Below are positions 1,249-36,021 of a stretch of 40,616 bases of DNA, one piece after another (position 1 is the first letter of the stretch; every line of letters begins with the position of its first letter). Origin of the DNA: a virus (Duplodnaviria > Heunggongvirae > Uroviricota > Caudoviricetes); IMG/VR virus record IMGVR_UViG_3300038393_003162, positions 212,407 to 253,022 of that record; one strand, written 5' to 3'. The notes beneath the pieces were generated by a model. The model saw nothing but the letters and a program-made list of their open reading frames with translations, was not told the DNA's origin and ran no database searches. The position numbers and the translations under genes were made by a program.

Positions 1249-1500
1249 TTACTCAAAACGAATCACATCACCGGGGACCACATCGCCCTTCTGGACACCA
1301 CGCAGGTAAATCCCAAGGCTTGGGCTTACCGTGGTCATGTGGTCGAATCTTTCGACGCCACTGATCATCGCGGTCAAGACCGTTCCATCTTCCTTGACCA
1401 CCTCCACATCTGCTCCAACCACAACTACATGTTTCGATTGTCGGCAGACTGCGACCAAGTCTCGTCCACGGATATGGAAAACTTCTTTTATTTCAATCAT
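1249..1500 (-). CDS. stand-alone EF-Tu domain II-like beta-barrel protein (83 aa)
   Basis: IKEVFHIRGR..., G-x-x-V-E-V, ISGVERF, LGIYLRGVQKGDVVPGDVI align with EF-Tu D2 (IEDVFSISGR...TGVEMFR...VGVLLRGIKREEIERGQVL). GAAGGA precedes ATG 1500. Confidence 0.75.
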   Translation of the reverse strand: MIEIKEVFHIRGRDLVAVCRQSKHVVVVGADVEVVKEDGTVLTAMISGVERFDHMTTVSPSLGIYLRGVQKGDVVPGDVIRFE

Positions 1501-1501
1501 A

Positions 1502-1780
1502 TTATCCTTCAATGAAAAGTTGGTCTCCGAGGTCGACATCTTCCTTGGTGATGTTGTCCGCAAGAAGTATGCCTATGGTGGCATCTTTAGGCGGAAACCA
1601 GCAGTTTGTCGACCTGAACATCTCGCAATCAATAAGCGTGGTGGTGAGTATGTCTCCATTGACTTTATGGATGGTTACCACACTACCTTGTGGTAAATTC
1701 TCACCCAAGGACTTGCCAGTGACCACAGTTCCCTTGGTCCTGATGTAGAACCTGTCTTCGATGGTTAAGATATGCTTCAT
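1502..1780 (-). CDS. stand-alone EF-Tu domain II-like beta-barrel protein (92 aa)
   Basis: LTIEDRFYIRTKGTVVTG, CEMFR, IGILLADNITKEDVDLGDQL closely match EF-Tu D2 motifs. Confidence 0.82.
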   Translation of the reverse strand: MKHILTIEDRFYIRTKGTVVTGKSLGENLPQGSVVTIHKVNGDILTTTLIDCEMFRSTNCWFPPKDATIGILLADNITKEDVDLGDQLFIEG

Positions 1781-10368: not shown

Positions 10369-10407
10369 GAAAAATTATTTGTTTGAGGGACCTACCTCGG
10401 TCCTCAG

Positions 10408-10479
10408 ATGCGGTGGAAGGATTTGAACCTTCGTCCTCCAGGTTATGAGCCTGGCAAGCTACCACTGCTCCACACCGCG
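10408..10479 (-). tRNA. trnfM: initiator-type tRNA-fMet(CAT)
   Basis: CGCGGTG/CACCGCA acceptor with C1xA72 mismatch, CTCATAA loop; closely resembles bacterial tRNA-fMet. Confidence 0.9.
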
Positions 10480-10585: not shown

Positions 10586-10614
10586 AATATAGCATAGATG
10601 TTTAACTTTTGCAA
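10586..10614 (-). promoter_or_regulatory. strong sigma70-type promoter of the tRNA operon
   Basis: TTGCAA-N17-TATATT, TG extension, AT-rich UP-like tract upstream. Confidence 0.7.
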
Positions 10615-10653: not shown

Positions 10654-10691
10654 AAAAATAGAGGCAAGGCAATTCCGTTTGCTCTGCCTCT
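10654..10691 (-). terminator. intrinsic terminator
   Basis: AGAGGCA...GCAA-loop-TTGC...TGCCTCT followed by ATTTTT. Confidence 0.6.
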
Positions 10692-10831
10692 CACTGCATC
10701 GTGGGAACCTGCCTGGCGGCAATGAGCTTATCGGTCAATCCGTTGACCACTTCCGGCTCTAGGGCTGATCCTTACGGATCTCCAGGCTGCCCGTTTGCTT
10801 CCCGAGGGAAGTCTCCACGTGTGGGCGATTG
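10654..10831 (-). ncRNA. candidate stand-alone structured sRNA (~175 nt)
   Basis: Own promoter and terminator, no ORF; multiple hairpins plus pseudoknot GCCTGG/CCAGGC. Confidence 0.55.
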
Positions 10832-10837
10832 AGTAAT

Positions 10838-10866
10838 ATCTTACCAGATTGAGGTCGAGAGGTCAA
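10838..10866 (-). promoter_or_regulatory. sigma70-type promoter (extended -10)
   Basis: TTGACC-N17-TAAGAT with TG extension. Confidence 0.6.
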
Positions 10867-10882
10867 GTTCGATTTAGATAGT

Positions 10883-10920
10883 AAAACAAAAAATGCCACC
10901 GGGAGCGGAACCCGGTGGCA
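10883..10920 (-). terminator. intrinsic terminator
   Basis: TGCCACCGGG/CCCGGTGGCA stem followed by TTTTTTGTTTT. Confidence 0.85.
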
Positions 10921-10957
10921 CTTCGGTCATCCTGGGGGATTTCTTGACGGTTGACTG

Positions 10958-11392
10958 TTAGTTACAGCCACGGACACCGCAAGACCCACGAGACCGAATC
11001 TTCACGCGGGTGGTCGCTTTGAACGAACCACCGCCGCGATTCCGGAAGGCACTGAGCAACCCGCTGCGACCGCCGTAGCATCCGCCGCCGCCACCGAATG
11101 CGGAGCCGCTGTAGCAACTCCCGGCACCGGCTGAGAATGAGCCGCTGTAGCAGCCGGACGCCTGCGCCATTGGGACCACGGGAACGACCGGGGTCACGGC
11201 GGCACCGCTGTAGCAGCTTCCTCCTCCGAACGACGGTGCGGCGCTATAGCAGCCGGACGAGCCGTAGGACGAGAAGGATTGGCTGGACGACTGCGCCGAC
11301 GAGTAGTAGCTACTGCCGCCGACCTGGGGGCAGGCACCTGTGGGACAAGGGATCTGGGTCAACGCCGCGAGAACGAGCAACTTGATCATCAA
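10958..11392 (-). CDS. secreted Gly/Ser/Cys-rich low-complexity protein with (G/S)CY(S/G) repeats
   Basis: Signal-peptide-like N-terminus, five CY(S/G) units, basic C-terminus; own promoter and terminator. Confidence 0.7.
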   Translation of the reverse strand: MMIKLLVLAALTQIPCPTGACPQVGGSSYYSSAQSSSQSFSSYGSSGCYSAAPSFGGGSCYSGAAVTPVVPVVPMAQASGCYSGSFSAGAGSCYSGSAFGGGGGCYGGRSGLLSAFRNRGGGSFKATTRVKIRSRGSCGVRGCN

Positions 11393-18998: not shown

Positions 18999-19505
18999 TT
19001 AGGCAAACTCAATCTGTTGGCAGTACATGCCAATAAGTTGAGAAATCCTGGATTCCGCGAGTCCCATAGCCCCGGCAATTTCCTTCATCTTGCGTCCCTC
19101 GACGAAGTATTGCCAGAGCAAACTCCGTCCTTGTTGAGACAGAGCTTCCGTCATTTCGTCGAATACCACCTGTAGGTCTGTCGTATTTTTCGACTCTAAA
19201 TTCAGATTCAAATCCAACGACTTGAAGCCACTGCATCCTCGGGAAATCGATCCCTTGGAGCCGAATCCGAGGCTTCGCAAATAATCCTTGATTGCACCTA
19301 CGATCCTTATGAGGATACAGGAAAAATACTTTTCATGATTGGGATCATAACGGTCCACGGCTTCGACCAGCCCCAAATAGGCGGCTGCCCTTAGCTCATC
19401 GATATCTACCGAGTAGAGATGTTTCTTCTTGTTGGCAGCTATCTTCGAGGCAAGCGGCATGTACTGCAAAATCAATGTGTTTCGCTGTTCTAAACTTAAG
19501 TTCAT
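18999..19505 (-). CDS. compact sigma-70 family factor, FliA/WhiG-like
   Basis: Region 2 (YMPLASKIA...DEL.AAAYLGLVEAVDRYDP...I.GAIKDYLR) and region 4 HTH (MKEIAGAMGLAESRISQL). Confidence 0.85.
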   Translation of the reverse strand: MNLSLEQRNTLILQYMPLASKIAANKKKHLYSVDIDELRAAAYLGLVEAVDRYDPNHEKYFSCILIRIVGAIKDYLRSLGFGSKGSISRGCSGFKSLDLNLNLESKNTTDLQVVFDEMTEALSQQGRSLLWQYFVEGRKMKEIAGAMGLAESRISQLIGMYCQQIEFA

Positions 19506-24264: not shown

Positions 24265-24539
24265 CTTATGCTTCAATAATACTATGATGACACTATGACA
24301 ACGATGGGCTTGCTTAGAAAGTCAGGATTATCCTGACAGTCTTTTTGGCAACTGAAATTGAGTCATAAGGACAATTACGCTCAGCCCTAGATCAGTAGAT
24401 AACATCTTAATTGATTTTGGTTTTTCAAACAAGATCAATATTTGCCCAAAGCCCATGATTAGAAGTTGCTTTCCAAGCAAAGCAGAGCAATCGAATGAAT
24501 CTTTTTAACGAATCTCCGTTTTGGCGGCTAAATAGTTAC

Positions 24540-26543: not shown

Positions 26544-26868
26544 CTTCCCTTTCTTTTTGCTGGAAGAAGGGGTGGTCTTTGTATGTTTCGTAGCTTGATT
26601 GGTCGATTCCGTCTGGTTTTTGTTCAGCATTATTTCTTTCTTCTCTGAGTTTCTGAGTGATTTCGACTACCATCTTGGACAGATTCTTCATCGCCATATT
26701 CAAGGAATTCGCGGGATACCTGGAGATCCGCTTGACCAATTCCTGGTACAATTCCGGCTCGAAGTTGCGCAACTTGATATAATTGAGGGCTTGTTCCAGG
26801 GTGATGATCTTGGGCTGGGGCTTCTTCGGCTTCTGTTGGTCACCGGGTATCTGGAAATTGATGTTCAT
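26509..26868 (-). CDS. hypothetical protein (~119 aa)
   Basis: ATGA-type overlap with the upstream gene. Confidence 0.6.
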   Translation of the reverse strand: MNINFQIPGDQQKPKKPQPKIITLEQALNYIKLRNFEPELYQELVKRISRYPANSLNMAMKNLSKMVVEITQKLREERNNAEQKPDGIDQSSYETYKDHPFFQQKEREDGAEEDGSPAV

Positions 26869-27281
26869 TCGGCTGGATTCGGACATGCGGGCTCCAATAT
26901 GACTTCGGGGGCTTCGGGAACTTGATAATCCTCAGGCATTTCCTGAGGAGGGTACATCTCCTCATGTCTCCTGACCGCTTCCGCATTCCTGTAGACCAGG
27001 TAATTCATGATGGCTTCTCGGAACAGGTCGTCCGACCCACGAAGTTCGCGAGTGGTCTCGGAGGGGATGTGGACACGATTGGTCGTGTAGTCGATGTAGG
27101 CAGTTAGGATCGACGGCTCTCCGTCCAATTCGCACGCGACATTGATGGGGATCATGTGCTGAATCTCGGTGACGAGAATCTCCTGGACCGGTGGTGCTAC
27201 CCGGACCTTTGCTTGATCTTGAGATGAAGACAATTTCAAAGCAACATGCCCATCATAAACAAAGTCTTTTCTTTCCGACAT
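26865..27281 (-). CDS. hypothetical protein (138 aa)
   Basis: Co-oriented ORF; CATAAATG at the start. Confidence 0.7.
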   Translation of the reverse strand: MSERKDFVYDGHVALKLSSSQDQAKVRVAPPVQEILVTEIQHMIPINVACELDGEPSILTAYIDYTTNRVHIPSETTRELRGSDDLFREAIMNYLVYRNAEAVRRHEEMYPPQEMPEDYQVPEAPEVILEPACPNPAE

Positions 27282-34392: not shown

Positions 34393-36021
34393 TTACACCC
34401 GCGAGGCGAGTCCTGCTGTCACGCGAGAGAGAGCAGGAGTGATGTCCTTCGGTTCTACCACCACGTTGATGATGGTCGCCACCTTGCTCTTAAATGCTGA
34501 ATTCACAGCATCTTCAAGTTCTTTCTCGGTCTCGACGTAATGCCCTTCGCCGCCAAAGACCATTGTGGCGTAGTGATAATCCCAATTGTGGATGTCGTTG
34601 AACTTGCCATCCAGGATGAACCGCTCGGTCGTGTATCCCTTGTTGTTCAGGACGAAGATGATCGGATTCAGATTCCTGCGGACCAAGGTGCTGATCTCAC
34701 TGAAGCTCATCTGAAAGGCACCGTCGCCCACGAGGACAATTGGTCGCGTCTCTGGCTGAGCTAAGCTGACGCCCAATGCAGCCGGGATCGCCATCCCCAT
34801 CGACGTGTAATACGCCGGGCTGATGAACGTATTGGCATGGCTCACCGTCAGGTCCATCGCCCCGAACATACAATCCCCGACATCCGTGATGATCGCCGTA
34901 TTCTTGGAGATGATCGAATCGATCTTCTCGAAGAATCGCTGCGTCTTGATCTTCGGGTTGCCTTCGGCGACCTCGAAGGGCTTGGGAACCCCCTTCTTGT
35001 AGACCACCGGGGACGGCTTCTTGGTCACTTGGGACTGGAAGAGCTTAGAGCAGAACTCGGGGAAGACAATGTCAGAATAGTTGTGATTACGGACCTTGAG
35101 GCATCCCACATTCGCCCGCACGGTCTGGCGAAGGGCGAAGTTCGGCTTGGCACTCCCCAAGACCATGTCCGTGAGCATCACACCCAACATTAGAATGCAG
35201 TCCGATTGCTCGACCATGTCCTTGACGTGCTGGGGAGCCGCTGCTCCCGAATAAACGCCACCGAACAGGGGGTGCCGCTCGCCGACCGTACTCTTGCTGA
35301 GCATCTCCGTGAACATGGGGACATTGGTCTTCTCAGCCCACTTGACCAATTCCTCGCCCAAGCCGAACCGAGAAAGCTCGACCCCCGCCAAGATCACGGG
35401 ATTCTTGGATTCCTCGACCCATTGCGTAACTTCCGCAATCGCTTCACCAAGATTGATCGGATCGCTGGTCGGAGTTTTGGGTGTCCCCTGCTCTACGTCG
35501 TAGCCGATCGGCTTGTCCGCGACGTCGCGAGGCAATTCGATATAGACCGGTTGCTTATGATGCTTGATCGCCTCAAAGACGCGATCGATCTCGTAAGCTG
35601 CCGTCGCCGGATTATCCAGCACAGCACTGGCGCAAGTGATATTCGAGAATATCTCTCGCTGCGTGTCGAAGTCGCGGACCGTGTGGTGGAGCAACATTCC
35701 TTCGGTCCGTTCCTTGATGCCGGGGCTGCCTACCAAGACAACGACCGGGCTCCGCTCCGCATACGCTCCCGCGATCGAATTAAGGGTCTTGAGCGAACCG
35801 ACATTGTAGGTCACACAGACACAGCCGATGCCGTGGACGCGAGCGTAGGCGTCAGCAGCGAACCCAGCATGCGACTCGTCCGTCGTGCCGACGAGGTCGA
35901 TATCTGGGTCATCTTCCATCTTCTTGAACATTGAGAGGATGTAATCCCCAGGCACTCCGAAGACCACACCGATCCCAGCGTTGATCATCCGTTCCTTGAG
36001 GAAATTGGCAACACTAGGCAT
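34393..36021 (-). CDS. TPP-dependent 2-oxoacid decarboxylase (pyruvate/indolepyruvate decarboxylase family)
   Basis: FGVPGDY, E..AGFAADAYAR, VTYNVG, LLHHT, GDGAFQM...NNKGYTTER. Confidence 0.93.
   Translation of the reverse strand: MPSVANFLKERMINAGIGVVFGVPGDYILSMFKKMEDDPDIDLVGTTDESHAGFAADAYARVHGIGCVCVTYNVGSLKTLNSIAGAYAERSPVVVLVGSPGIKERTEGMLLHHTVRDFDTQREIFSNITCASAVLDNPATAAYEIDRVFEAIKHHKQPVYIELPRDVADKPIGYDVEQGTPKTPTSDPINLGEAIAEVTQWVEESKNPVILAGVELSRFGLGEELVKWAEKTNVPMFTEMLSKSTVGERHPLFGGVYSGAAAPQHVKDMVEQSDCILMLGVMLTDMVLGSAKPNFALRQTVRANVGCLKVRNHNYSDIVFPEFCSKLFQSQVTKKPSPVVYKKGVPKPFEVAEGNPKIKTQRFFEKIDSIISKNTAIITDVGDCMFGAMDLTVSHANTFISPAYYTSMGMAIPAALGVSLAQPETRPIVLVGDGAFQMSFSEISTLVRRNLNPIIFVLNNKGYTTERFILDGKFNDIHNWDYHYATMVFGGEGHYVETEKELEDAVNSAFKSKVATIINVVVEPKDITPALSRVTAGLASRV

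What the first reader, a model, noticed from the sequence alone, without database searches (positions are those of the whole stretch)
10654..10866. Stand-alone ~175-nt pseudoknotted sRNA gene with its own promoter and terminator
Seen: insulated upstream by the 10883-10920 terminator, with a TTGACC-N17-TAAGAT promoter and an intrinsic terminator, and no ORF. Fold: P1 CGTGG/CCACG; CTTCC-CTCG-GGAAG; GGGC/GCCC carrying GATCC-GTAA-GGATC; GAGC/GCTC carrying GGTCAA-CGGA-TTGACC; pseudoknot GCCTGG/CCAGGC. The compact multi-way junction resembles an aptamer or ribozyme more than an antisense RNA. Inference: an early-expressed phage RNA, possibly a sponge for a host signalling molecule or protein.
Basis: partly seen in the sequence, partly recalled or inferred. 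Interest (0 to 1): 0.75.

Follow-up and report, generated by a model that had tools for sequence, protein, structure and literature searches.

The report
Orphan structured small RNA gene
A giant soil phage carries, among its tRNA genes, a stretch that looks like a self-contained gene for a roughly 175-base folded RNA, but it resembles no known RNA and has no relatives in any collection searched, so its role remains a hypothesis.

Summary
The sequence features are real, on the minus strand. An upstream terminator (10924-10890) is followed by a TTGACC-N17-TAAGAT promoter with TG before the -10 box. No credible ORF is present.

Folding support is modest: z -2.2 for the core, -3.0 for the whole unit, -3.9 for the terminator.

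No Rfam family matches, even at E<=10. A covariance model built from the element and several pattern scans found no homolog. The sets searched were IMG/VR, JGI metagenomes, GenBank phages, contigs of the two nearest phage lineages, 156 Pirellulales genomes, and about 494 kb that appears to be this phage (two records). The fold, including the pseudoknot, therefore cannot be tested by covariation.

The aptamer, ribozyme and sponge ideas have no support.

The one functional lead is new. Eleven bases (10768-10758) are perfectly complementary to an invariant segment of a five-copy 5' leader in this phage. That evidence is weak: about 0.9% of comparable windows show such a match, and predicted dimer energies are unremarkable.

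Verdict: a plausible orphan small RNA gene of unknown function. It sits where T4 RNAs C and D sit, in the tRNA region.

The parts
10890..10924 (-). Intrinsic terminator of the upstream 144-aa gene. It insulates the RNA unit.
   Evidence: 14-bp stem followed by a T run; -25.3 kcal/mol, z -5.7.
10838..10866 (-). Sigma-70-type promoter: TTGACC, 17-nt spacer, TAAGAT, with TG before the -10 box. The predicted start is near 10832-10830.
   Evidence: 9 of 12 consensus positions, TG present; sequence. The start site is inferred.
10696..10822 (-). G+C-rich structured core, 127 nt. This is the span modelled as R1.
   Evidence: MFE -47.4 kcal/mol, z -2.2; G+C 0.59 against flanks of 0.29 and 0.39.
10815..10819 (-). 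P1 5' strand CGUGG. It pairs with CCACG at 10704-10700 and closes the core.
   Evidence: present in the centroid fold.
10700..10704 (-). P1 3' strand CCACG.
10798..10811 (-). Hairpin CUUCC-CUCG-GGAAG.
10789..10792 (-). GGGC, the 5' strand of the candidate pseudoknot helix. Its partner is GCCC at 10765-10762.
   Evidence: complementary segments exist. Not in the nested MFE fold and not testable without homologs.
10782..10787 (-). GCCUGG, which pairs with CCAGGC at 10716-10711. This long-range helix encloses the two inner arms.
   Evidence: centroid fold.
10711..10716 (-). CCAGGC, the 3' strand of the long-range helix.
10767..10780 (-). Hairpin GAUCC-GUAA-GGAUC, capped by a GNRA-type tetraloop.
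10758..10768 (-). UCAGCCCUAGA. It covers the end of the GUAA hairpin, the GCCC pseudoknot strand, the UA junction and the start of GAGC. It is perfectly complementary to the invariant UCUAGGGCUGA of the five-copy leader L.
   Evidence: five copies; the 11-bp duplex is -19.4 kcal/mol; the junction is partly unpaired; statistics are weak.
10724..10759 (-). Arm GAGC/GCUC carrying the hairpin GGUCAA-CGGA-UUGACC. The two are separated by a purine-rich asymmetric internal loop, CGGAAG(U) against (G)AUAA.
10654..10691 (-). Intrinsic terminator of the RNA: an 8+4 bp bulged stem at 10691-10660, then A and five U at 10659-10654.
   Evidence: -16.7 kcal/mol, z -3.9.
10586..10614 (-). Separate promoter-like site, TTGCAA-N17-TATATT, in the A+T-rich spacer ahead of tRNA-Met. 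It argues against the element being a leader of that tRNA.
10407..10479 (-). tRNA-Met (CAU), the next gene downstream.
24303..24398 (-). The window's copy of leader L, the candidate pairing partner. Its UCUAGGGCUGA lies at 24391-24381, directly after a TAAGAT -10 box.

Best explanation
Layer 1, about 0.7 likely. This is a genuine, independently transcribed small RNA gene of about 175 nt in a roughly 585-kb phage whose host is probably a planctomycete. A host-type (sigma-70-like) promoter starts the transcript. The transcript folds into a closed five-helix core: P1 encloses one free hairpin and a long-range helix that carries two further arms, and a 4-bp pseudoknot helix is possible. A constitutive intrinsic terminator releases the RNA as a discrete molecule. 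It is not a leader of the downstream tRNA-Met.

Layer 2, the mechanism, inferred and about 0.3 likely. The RNA acts in trans as a folded molecule, serving as a protein-binding scaffold or decoy. Its three perfect tetraloop-capped stems and the purine-rich internal loop are the kind of surface such RNAs present. Its home is an island of tRNA, translation-factor and RNA-repair genes, which points to a partner in RNA metabolism or translation.

Shown by tools: the sequence signals, the predicted fold, and the absence of any ORF, known family or homolog.
Inferred: transcription, the pseudoknot, the trans action and the partner.
For: - The architecture runs terminator, promoter, G+C-rich core, terminator, next promoter.
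- Every helix is Watson-Crick and is recovered in the centroid fold.
- Fold z-scores are -2.2 to -3.0 on the minus strand and -1.3 on the plus strand.
- Core G+C is 0.59, against 0.29 and 0.39 in the flanks.
- No plausible ORF overlaps the unit.
- I found no convincing antiterminator pairing by eye, the terminator is stable in the ensemble, and tRNA-Met has its own promoter.
- No antisense match longer than 13 nt exists in the 195-kb record, and BLAST found nothing at E<=10 in the other 299-kb record. That favours action through structure rather than through long base-pairing.
- Context: the unit sits in a tRNA and homing-endonuclease array of a phage that also encodes Ro60.
- Precedent: T4 transcribes two small RNAs of unknown role from its tRNA region (PMC3014915). 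GOLLD and ROOL RNAs often lie near tRNA genes and in prophages (PMC5737381).
Against: - There is no homolog anywhere searched, so there is no covariation and no evidence of purifying selection.
- Fold statistics are only modest: 3 of 200 shuffles fold as well.
- The promoter matches 9 of 12 positions of a consensus derived from other bacteria.
- No protein partner is identified.
- No expression data exist.
- An 11-nt complementarity to a repeated leader offers a competing mode of action.
Confidence: 0.3

Rival explanations
1. Base-pairing regulator of a shared phage leader. The junction sequence UCAGCCCUAGA (10768-10758) pairs with UCUAGGGCUGA, at roughly positions +5 to +15 of five phage transcripts that all begin with the same ~95-nt leader L. 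Pairing would open the leader's closing GGGC/GCCC helix and the base of its first hairpin. That would change the stability, termination or translation of at least five transcription units at once.
For: - The complement is 11 nt, perfectly Watson-Crick, -19.4 kcal/mol.
- The target segment is invariant in all five leader copies, while the leader stems show compensatory changes.
- In the 195-kb record the three leader copies lie on the same strand as this RNA, each just after a -10-like box.
- The seven central bases of the RNA site are a junction predicted partly to mostly unpaired in the nested fold, and the first four bases of the target are unpaired in the leader consensus fold.
- It is the only anti-leader copy in about 494 kb of the phage.
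Against: - The match was found after the fact. This RNA has about 20 other 11-12-nt antisense matches in the genome, as chance predicts.
- 0.9% of same-strand 179-nt windows have an antisense 11-mer to a leader copy.
- 6% of windows have an antisense 11-mer with three or more same-strand copies.
- Both sites are partly buried in their own folds. The predicted dimer gain is -4.9 to -12.6 kcal/mol, against -6.3 +/- 3.0 for random targets.
- The same match could equally reflect a shared DNA-level motif.
- No relatives exist in which to test co-variation.
Confidence: 0.22
2. No function: a chance or decaying intergenic stretch, for example a relic of a lost RNA gene or a scar left by a mobile element. 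Its hairpins and promoter-like and terminator-like sites are not used as a unit.
For: - It is a singleton with no homolog in any collection searched.
- The two nearest phage lineages, at 55-58% ligase identity, have nothing like it in the contigs recovered for them, which include the stretch between the ligase gene and the tRNA array for one lineage.
- The upstream gene is also an orphan, so this may be a fast-turnover region.
- Fold z-scores are modest.
- Homing endonucleases nearby indicate frequent DNA insertion.
Against: - A strong, correctly placed terminator (z -3.9) lies about 175 nt after a promoter with an extended -10 box.
- The G+C island is sharply bounded, at 0.59 against 0.29 and 0.39.
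- Three perfect tetraloop hairpins sit inside two long-range helices, and only 6 such clusters occur in 195 kb.
- The sequence is identical in an independent assembly from another sample.
Confidence: 0.2
3. Ligand-binding aptamer or self-cleaving ribozyme. The pseudoknotted multi-way junction would bind a small molecule or catalyse a reaction.
For: - A compact junction with a possible H-type pseudoknot and a GNRA tetraloop.
- The strand order GGGC, GCCUGG, hairpin, GCCC, hairpin, CCAGGC mirrors the nested double pseudoknot of HDV-like ribozymes. I read this directly from the sequence.
Against: - No riboswitch or ribozyme family in Rfam 15 matches, even at E<=10 with relaxed filters.
- The helix that would be P1 has 4 bp rather than 6-7.
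- The would-be P3 is a 5-bp stem with a GUAA loop, which leaves no L3 and no P1.1.
- No expression platform is present. The terminator has no evident alternative pairing, and no gene is controlled.
- There are no conserved nucleotides to point to, because there are no homologs.
Confidence: 0.08
4. Cis-acting leader or attenuator of the downstream tRNA-Met transcript. The terminator at 10691-10654 would be conditional, and read-through would feed the tRNA array.
For: - The unit is on the same strand as tRNA-Met and 175 nt upstream of it.
- The U tract has only five U.
Against: - I found no antiterminator that competes with the terminator stem, and the terminator hairpin appears intact in the centroid fold.
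- A separate promoter-like site lies between the terminator and the tRNA.
- The A+T-rich 175-nt spacer looks like ordinary intergenic DNA.
Confidence: 0.07
5. A partner RNA (Y RNA) of the phage's Ro60 protein. The hairpin UGGUCAA-CGGA-UUGACCGA would mimic the Ro60-binding helix, GGUC(C)GA paired with UUGACC.
For: - The phage encodes a Ro60-like protein with a neighbouring vWA protein.
- The 3' strand UUGACC matches my recollection of the 3' strand of the vertebrate Ro60-binding helix; supplies only the 5' strand, GGUCCGA. The 5' strand here shares GGUC with it.
Against: - It has neither the bacterial motif GNCGAAN0-1G nor the full vertebrate GGUCCGA (PMC4201824), and it has no bulged C, which I recall as part of that helix.
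- It shares none of the motifs I read in the tRNA-like RNAs beside the Ro60 gene (CUUGUC, AAUAC, UACAU).
- It has no tRNA-like T arm.
- It lies about 35 kb from the Ro60 gene.
- A 6-bp resemblance is within chance.
Confidence: 0.04

Closest known systems
Bacteriophage T4 RNAs C and D, small stable RNAs of the T4 tRNA region
   Same: These are small non-tRNA RNAs encoded within a phage tRNA gene region whose biological roles are unknown (PMC3014915).
   Different: BLAST against 50,697 GenBank phage records found no sequence match. By my recollection, the T4 RNAs are made from the tRNA-region transcripts and processed out of them. This element has its own promoter and terminator. No structural comparison was made.
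GOLLD and ROOL large ornate RNAs (in Rfam)
   Same: They are structured, pseudoknotted RNAs of unknown function that are often found near tRNA genes and in prophages (PMC5737381; bioRxiv 10.1101/2024.12.08.627333).
   Different: ROOL averages 581 nt and GOLLD is longer still; this core is 127 nt. Neither Rfam model matches. They are widespread families with covariation support, whereas this is a singleton.
Promoter-to-terminator trans-acting bacterial and phage small RNAs that pair with mRNA leaders
   Same: A discrete unit of about 175 nt with a sigma-70-type promoter and an intrinsic terminator. It has an 11-nt perfect complement to the 5' region of several transcripts.
   Different: The candidate seed sits in a helical junction, not in an open 5' region. 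The energetics are not better than random controls. No chaperone-binding features or targets have been verified.
HDV-like self-cleaving ribozymes
   Same: The two interleaved helices and the two hairpins come in the same order along the strand as in a nested double pseudoknot.
   Different: The would-be P1 has 4 bp instead of 6-7. The would-be P3 is 5 bp with a tetraloop, so no L3 or P1.1 is possible. There is no J4/2 context for a catalytic C. No Rfam HDV-type model matches.
YrlA / Y RNAs, the Ro60 partner RNAs (Rfam RF02553, RF00019)
   Same: The phage encodes Ro60, and one hairpin shares GGUC and UUGACC with the Ro60-binding helix.
   Different: The GNCGAA motif and the bulged C are missing, as is a tRNA-like domain. 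The element is not adjacent to the Ro60 gene and is unlike the tRNA-like RNAs beside that gene.

Membership tests
Any Rfam 15 family (4227 covariance models) | Score at or above the family's gathering threshold, or at least a suggestive match at E<=10 | tested here: not met
   Between 10654 and 10866 there are only sub-threshold hits that overlap the terminator (snoRNA and greA-leader models, 9-16 bits against thresholds of 60-440).
HDV-like ribozyme | Nested double-pseudoknot strand order: P1, P2, P3 hairpin, P1', P4 hairpin, P2' | tested here: met
   The order GGGC, GCCUGG, GAUCC hairpin, GCCC, GAGC/GGUCAA arm, CCAGGC is read directly from the sequence.
HDV-like ribozyme | P1 of about 6-7 bp starting at the cleavage site | tested here: not met
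   GGGC/GCCC cannot be extended. The neighbouring positions are C opposite U and A opposite A.
HDV-like ribozyme | Short P3 (about 3 bp) with a 5-8-nt L3 that forms P1.1 with J1/4 | tested here: not met
   The hairpin is 5 bp with a 4-nt GUAA loop, and J1/4 would be UA.
YrlA / Y RNA | Ro60-binding motif: GNCGAAN0-1G in bacteria, or GGUCCGA with a bulged C in vertebrates | tested here: not met
   The motifs are taken from PMC4201824; the bulged C is my recollection. The element has GGUCAA with no bulge and no CGAA.
YrlA / Y RNA | tRNA-like domain with T-arm and D-arm mimics | tested here: not met
   ARAGORN and the Rfam tRNA model find nothing between 10654 and 10866. All hairpin loops are tetraloops.
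YrlA / Y RNA | Encoded next to the Ro60 (rsr) gene | tested here: not met
   Ro60 lies at G000 70271-71893 (L130 8272-9894) and the RNA at 34631-34809, about 35 kb apart.
Transcription-terminating riboswitch or attenuator | Terminator with a mutually exclusive antiterminator, controlling a downstream gene in the same transcript | tested here: not met
   I found no competing pairing by inspection. The terminator is intact in the centroid fold, and the downstream tRNA has its own promoter-like site.
Base-pairing trans small RNA | Own promoter and intrinsic terminator, and no ORF | tested here: met
Base-pairing trans small RNA | Accessible seed that is complementary to its targets beyond chance | tested here: inconclusive
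   An 11-nt match to the five-copy leader L. Against that, 0.9% of comparable windows show such a match and the dimer energies are unremarkable.
T4 RNA C / RNA D | Sequence similarity to the T4 genes | tested here: not met
   blastn with word size 11 against 50,697 phage records found no match.
T4 RNA C / RNA D | Non-tRNA small RNA encoded in the phage tRNA region | tested here: met
   Nine tRNA genes lie between 793 and 10479, with tRNA-Met 175 nt downstream of the element. See PMC3014915.
Conserved structured RNA class in general | Homologs with compensatory base changes in the helices | tested here: not met
   No homolog was found. Logan assemblies could not be searched by DNA.

The most novel reading that the evidence does not exclude
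The RNA is a master trans-regulator of the phage's own gene expression. Its junction sequence invades and unfolds a structured 5' leader shared by at least five transcription units of a roughly 585-kb phage. The RNA's own pseudoknot (GGGC/GCCC) masks that same sequence and so acts as a switch. That would be a phage-internal regulon of one small RNA and one leader family, a type not described for huge phages.
Probability: 0.15. Interest if true: 0.7.

Novelty: new member of a known kind. Interest (0 to 1): 0.4.

Why it matters
Huge phages pack their tRNA islands with unexplained RNA genes. T4's RNAs C and D, GOLLD and ROOL show that such RNAs can stay unexplained for decades.

If this unit is expressed, it adds a compact, easily synthesised 127-nt core that can be probed for structure, partners and activity. 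The complementarity to a five-copy leader gives a concrete gel-shift and reporter experiment. A positive result would reveal RNA-based control across several operons of a megaphage.

As it stands, this is a singleton prediction without comparative support, so its value is as a candidate and not as a finding.

Tried and rejected
Known families
- Rfam at gathering threshold and at E<=10 gave nothing.
- ARAGORN found no tRNA or tmRNA in the element.

Direct homolog searches
- blastn against GenBank phages found nothing.
- Exact 31-mer and 21-mer scans of IMG/VR found nothing.
- A pseudoknot-aware pattern gave 114+ hits in IMG/VR and a second pattern gave 120+ in metagenomes. When the 80 loci listed from each scan were rescanned with covariance model R1, all looked like chance. 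The best was 21 bits, away from the pattern site and lacking the GGUCAA hairpin.
- Two further arm-specific patterns found nothing.

Searches through neighbouring genes
- The ligase gave two related lineages at 55-58% identity. Their contigs, which for one lineage reach from the ligase gene into the tRNA array, contain no R1 match with filters off.
- The upstream 144-aa protein is an orphan.
- An alignment of a phage-specific 376-aa protein found no kin in IMG/VR.

Other sources
- Paralogs: none in the 195-kb record or in the 299-kb second record that appears to be the rest of the same phage.
- Host origin: none in 5 plus 151 Pirellulales genomes.

Ideas rejected
- Y RNA: rejected on motifs.
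- HDV-like ribozyme: rejected on helix geometry.
- Riboswitch: rejected for lack of an expression platform.
- Small protein gene: rejected.
- RNAduplex over the whole genome was uninformative, because it builds unrealistically long loop-rich duplexes.

Full report
**Where the element lies**

The window is the minus strand of positions 4847-45462 of a 195-kb IMG/VR virus record. The NAD-dependent ligase gene 2.3 kb away is found, 100% identical, on a 585-kb contig. Its nearest cellular relatives, at 41-43% identity, are Planctomycetota. This is therefore a megaphage, probably of a planctomycete.

The element sits at the upstream end of a minus-strand array of nine tRNA genes interspersed with HNH homing endonucleases. 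Upstream lies a 144-aa orphan gene. About 175 nt downstream lies tRNA-Met.

**Checking the observation**

- The upstream gene ends in a strong terminator at 10924-10890 (-25.3 kcal/mol, z -5.7).
- The promoter TTGACC-N17-TAAGAT lies at 10866-10838. It has TG before the -10 box and matches 9 of 12 consensus positions.
- All listed helices are at the stated places.
- The centroid fold of the 127-nt core (10822-10696) has this layout. P1 (CGUGG/CCACG) encloses the hairpin CUUCC-CUCG-GGAAG and the long-range helix GCCUGG/CCAGGC. That helix in turn encloses the hairpin GAUCC-GUAA-GGAUC and the arm GAGC/GCUC carrying GGUCAA-CGGA-UUGACC.
- In this fold GCCUGG/CCAGGC is nested. The pseudoknot would be made by GGGC/GCCC. 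Its geometry is plausible for an H-type knot, with a single A between GGGC and GCCUGG, but it remains unverified.
- The pattern scan missed the element's own terminator because of a bulge. Folded alone it gives -16.7 kcal/mol and z -3.9, and it is followed by A and five U.
- The overlapping ORFs have only 30-65 codons and run through promoters, terminators or the A+T-rich spacer.

**Is it more than chance?**

The support is real but modest.

- Fold z-scores are -2.98 for the whole unit and -2.21 for the core, with 3 of 200 shuffles as good in each.
- The plus strand gives z -1.3.
- Core G+C is 0.59, against 0.29 in the downstream spacer and 0.39 in the promoter region.
- Only six places in 195 kb have three perfect 5-bp tetraloop hairpins within 127 nt. 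At least two of the other five lie inside long ORFs.

The strongest argument is the architecture: terminator, promoter, structured G+C island, terminator, next promoter (10614-10586), tRNA.

**Known families**

Rfam 15 gives only the tRNAs at gathering threshold. Inside the element nothing meaningful appears at E<=10.

**Homolog searches**

I built covariance model R1 (127 positions, 31 pairs). It recovers the element at 168 bits and finds nothing else in any of these sets:

- the 195-kb record;
- a 299-kb record that lacks the ligase and carries further copies of a repeat specific to this phage, so it appears to be the rest of the genome;
- contigs of the two nearest lineages, at 55-58% ligase identity, which for one of them include the region between the ligase gene and the tRNA array;
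- the 80 IMG/VR loci and 80 metagenome loci listed from pseudoknot-aware pattern scans;
- 156 Pirellulales genomes.

Exact-word and arm-specific scans of IMG/VR and blastn against GenBank phages were empty. The only other copy in hand, from an independent assembly, is identical over 601 nt.

The element is thus a singleton. Neither the fold nor the pseudoknot can be tested by covariation.

**Readings considered and rejected**

*HDV-like ribozyme.* The strand order matches a nested double pseudoknot. However, the would-be P1 has 4 bp, and the would-be P3 is a 5-bp stem with a GUAA tetraloop, which leaves no L3 or P1.1.

*Riboswitch or attenuator.* I found no alternative pairing that competes with the terminator, and the next gene has its own promoter.

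- The hairpin GGUCAA/UUGACC resembles the Ro60-binding helix. It lacks the bacterial GNCGAA motif and the full vertebrate GGUCCGA (PMC4201824), and it has no bulged C.
- It shares none of the motifs I read in the tRNA-like RNAs beside the Ro60 gene.
- It lies about 35 kb from that gene.

*Small protein gene.* No credible frame exists.

**A new lead: complementarity to a repeated leader**

I searched the 195-kb record for antisense matches. It returned the roughly 20 hits of 11-13 nt that chance predicts. One 11-mer, UCAGCCCUAGA at 10768-10758, hits three same-strand sites. These turned out to be copies of a ~95-nt element that starts just after a -10-like box. Two more copies lie in the 299-kb record.

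This element, which I call leader L, has these properties:

- It matches no Rfam family.
- It folds into a closing GGGC/GCCC helix around two hairpins, with compensatory changes in the hairpins.
- It heads unrelated transcription units: a small hydrophobic protein, an acyl-carrier-like protein, a ~450-nt ORF-free stretch before PhoH, a UVR-motif protein and an unknown protein.

The target UCUAGGGCUGA is invariant in all five copies. The duplex is worth -19.4 kcal/mol.

Several points weigh against a real interaction.

- 0.9% of same-strand 179-nt windows carry an antisense 11-mer to a leader copy.
- 6% carry an antisense 11-mer with three or more same-strand copies.
- Both sites are partly buried in their own folds.
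- The predicted dimer gain is -4.9 to -12.6 kcal/mol, against -6.3 +/- 3.0 for random targets.

I rate this lead at about 0.2.

**Verdict**

This is most likely (about 0.7) a genuine stand-alone gene for a structured small RNA. Its mode of action is unknown. My rough odds are:

| Mode of action | Estimate |
|---|---|
| Folded trans-acting RNA that binds a protein | about 0.3 |
| Pairing with leader L | about 0.2 |
| No function | about 0.2 |
| Aptamer or ribozyme | about 0.08 |
| Cis-acting leader of tRNA-Met | about 0.07 |
| Y RNA | about 0.04 |

The closest known things are defined by context, not homology. T4 RNAs C and D are small RNAs of the tRNA region with unknown roles (PMC3014915). 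GOLLD and ROOL are ornate RNAs that often lie near tRNA genes and in prophages (PMC5737381).

The scan's earlier notes list this same element as one of several RNA candidates in this window. None of the notes shown reports it on other DNA.

Noticed in passing
window 24398-24303 (-); G000:C1 171116-171215 and 134723-134822 (+); L336 about 1410-1518 (-); L337 about 1410-1518 (-): A five-copy ~95-nt 5' leader ('leader L') specific to this phage. It has the invariant segments UACUGAUCUAGGGCUGA and GACUCAAUUUCAGUU, followed in four of the five copies by GCCAAAAA. Two hairpins show compensatory changes, and a GGGC/GCCC helix closes the structure. Each copy starts just after a -10-like box and heads a different transcription unit. 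It matches no Rfam family and was not seen in other IMG/VR contigs. It could be a cis-acting transcription or stability element.
   Followed up: partly
window 24303-23845 (-): After the window's leader-L copy comes about 450 nt that I did not examine for short ORFs. It ends in a terminator-like hairpin (about 23888-23852) followed by a T run, upstream of the PhoH gene. It may be a long non-coding RNA or a long structured 5' UTR.
   Followed up: no
window 10407-10479 (-): The tRNA-Met (CAU) directly downstream has a non-standard first acceptor pair, C1 opposite A72. By my recollection this is the hallmark of bacterial initiator tRNA. It appears to have its own promoter at 10614-10586.
   Followed up: no
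L004 13637-14030 (+): In the related phage lineage (ligase 55% identical), a near-consensus promoter (TTGACA-N16-TACACT with TG) drives an ORF-free stretch of about 350 nt. The stretch is very G+C-rich and folds with z -3.1, ending in a long hairpin. It lies between the ligase operon and the tRNA array. It has no Rfam match and is not homologous to the element studied here.
   Followed up: partly
L004 15005-15143 (+): A weak tmRNA-model hit (30 bits against a gathering score of 47, spanning the whole model in only 139 nt) lies inside the related phage's tRNA array. It may be a miniature tmRNA-like or tRNA-like gene.
   Followed up: no
G156 (the record behind L333), 298,603 bases: IMG/VR classes this record as a provirus. 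It lacks the ligase gene but carries two copies of leader L. It comes from a sample numbered next to one that holds this phage. It therefore appears to be another part of the same ~585-kb phage genome and not an integrated prophage.
   Followed up: partly
window 10958-11392 (-): The upstream 144-aa glycine- and cysteine-rich protein has no relative among 5.8 billion protein clusters other than itself. The immediate neighbourhood of the RNA is therefore lineage-specific.
   Followed up: partly
G000:C1 18281-18407, 26041-26227, 59961-60107, 85881-86007, 93701-93827: These are the five other places in the 195-kb record with three perfect 5-bp tetraloop hairpins within 127 nt. The first two fall inside long ORFs in the window (26865-27281 and 18999-19505, minus strand). 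The other three were not examined.
   Followed up: no
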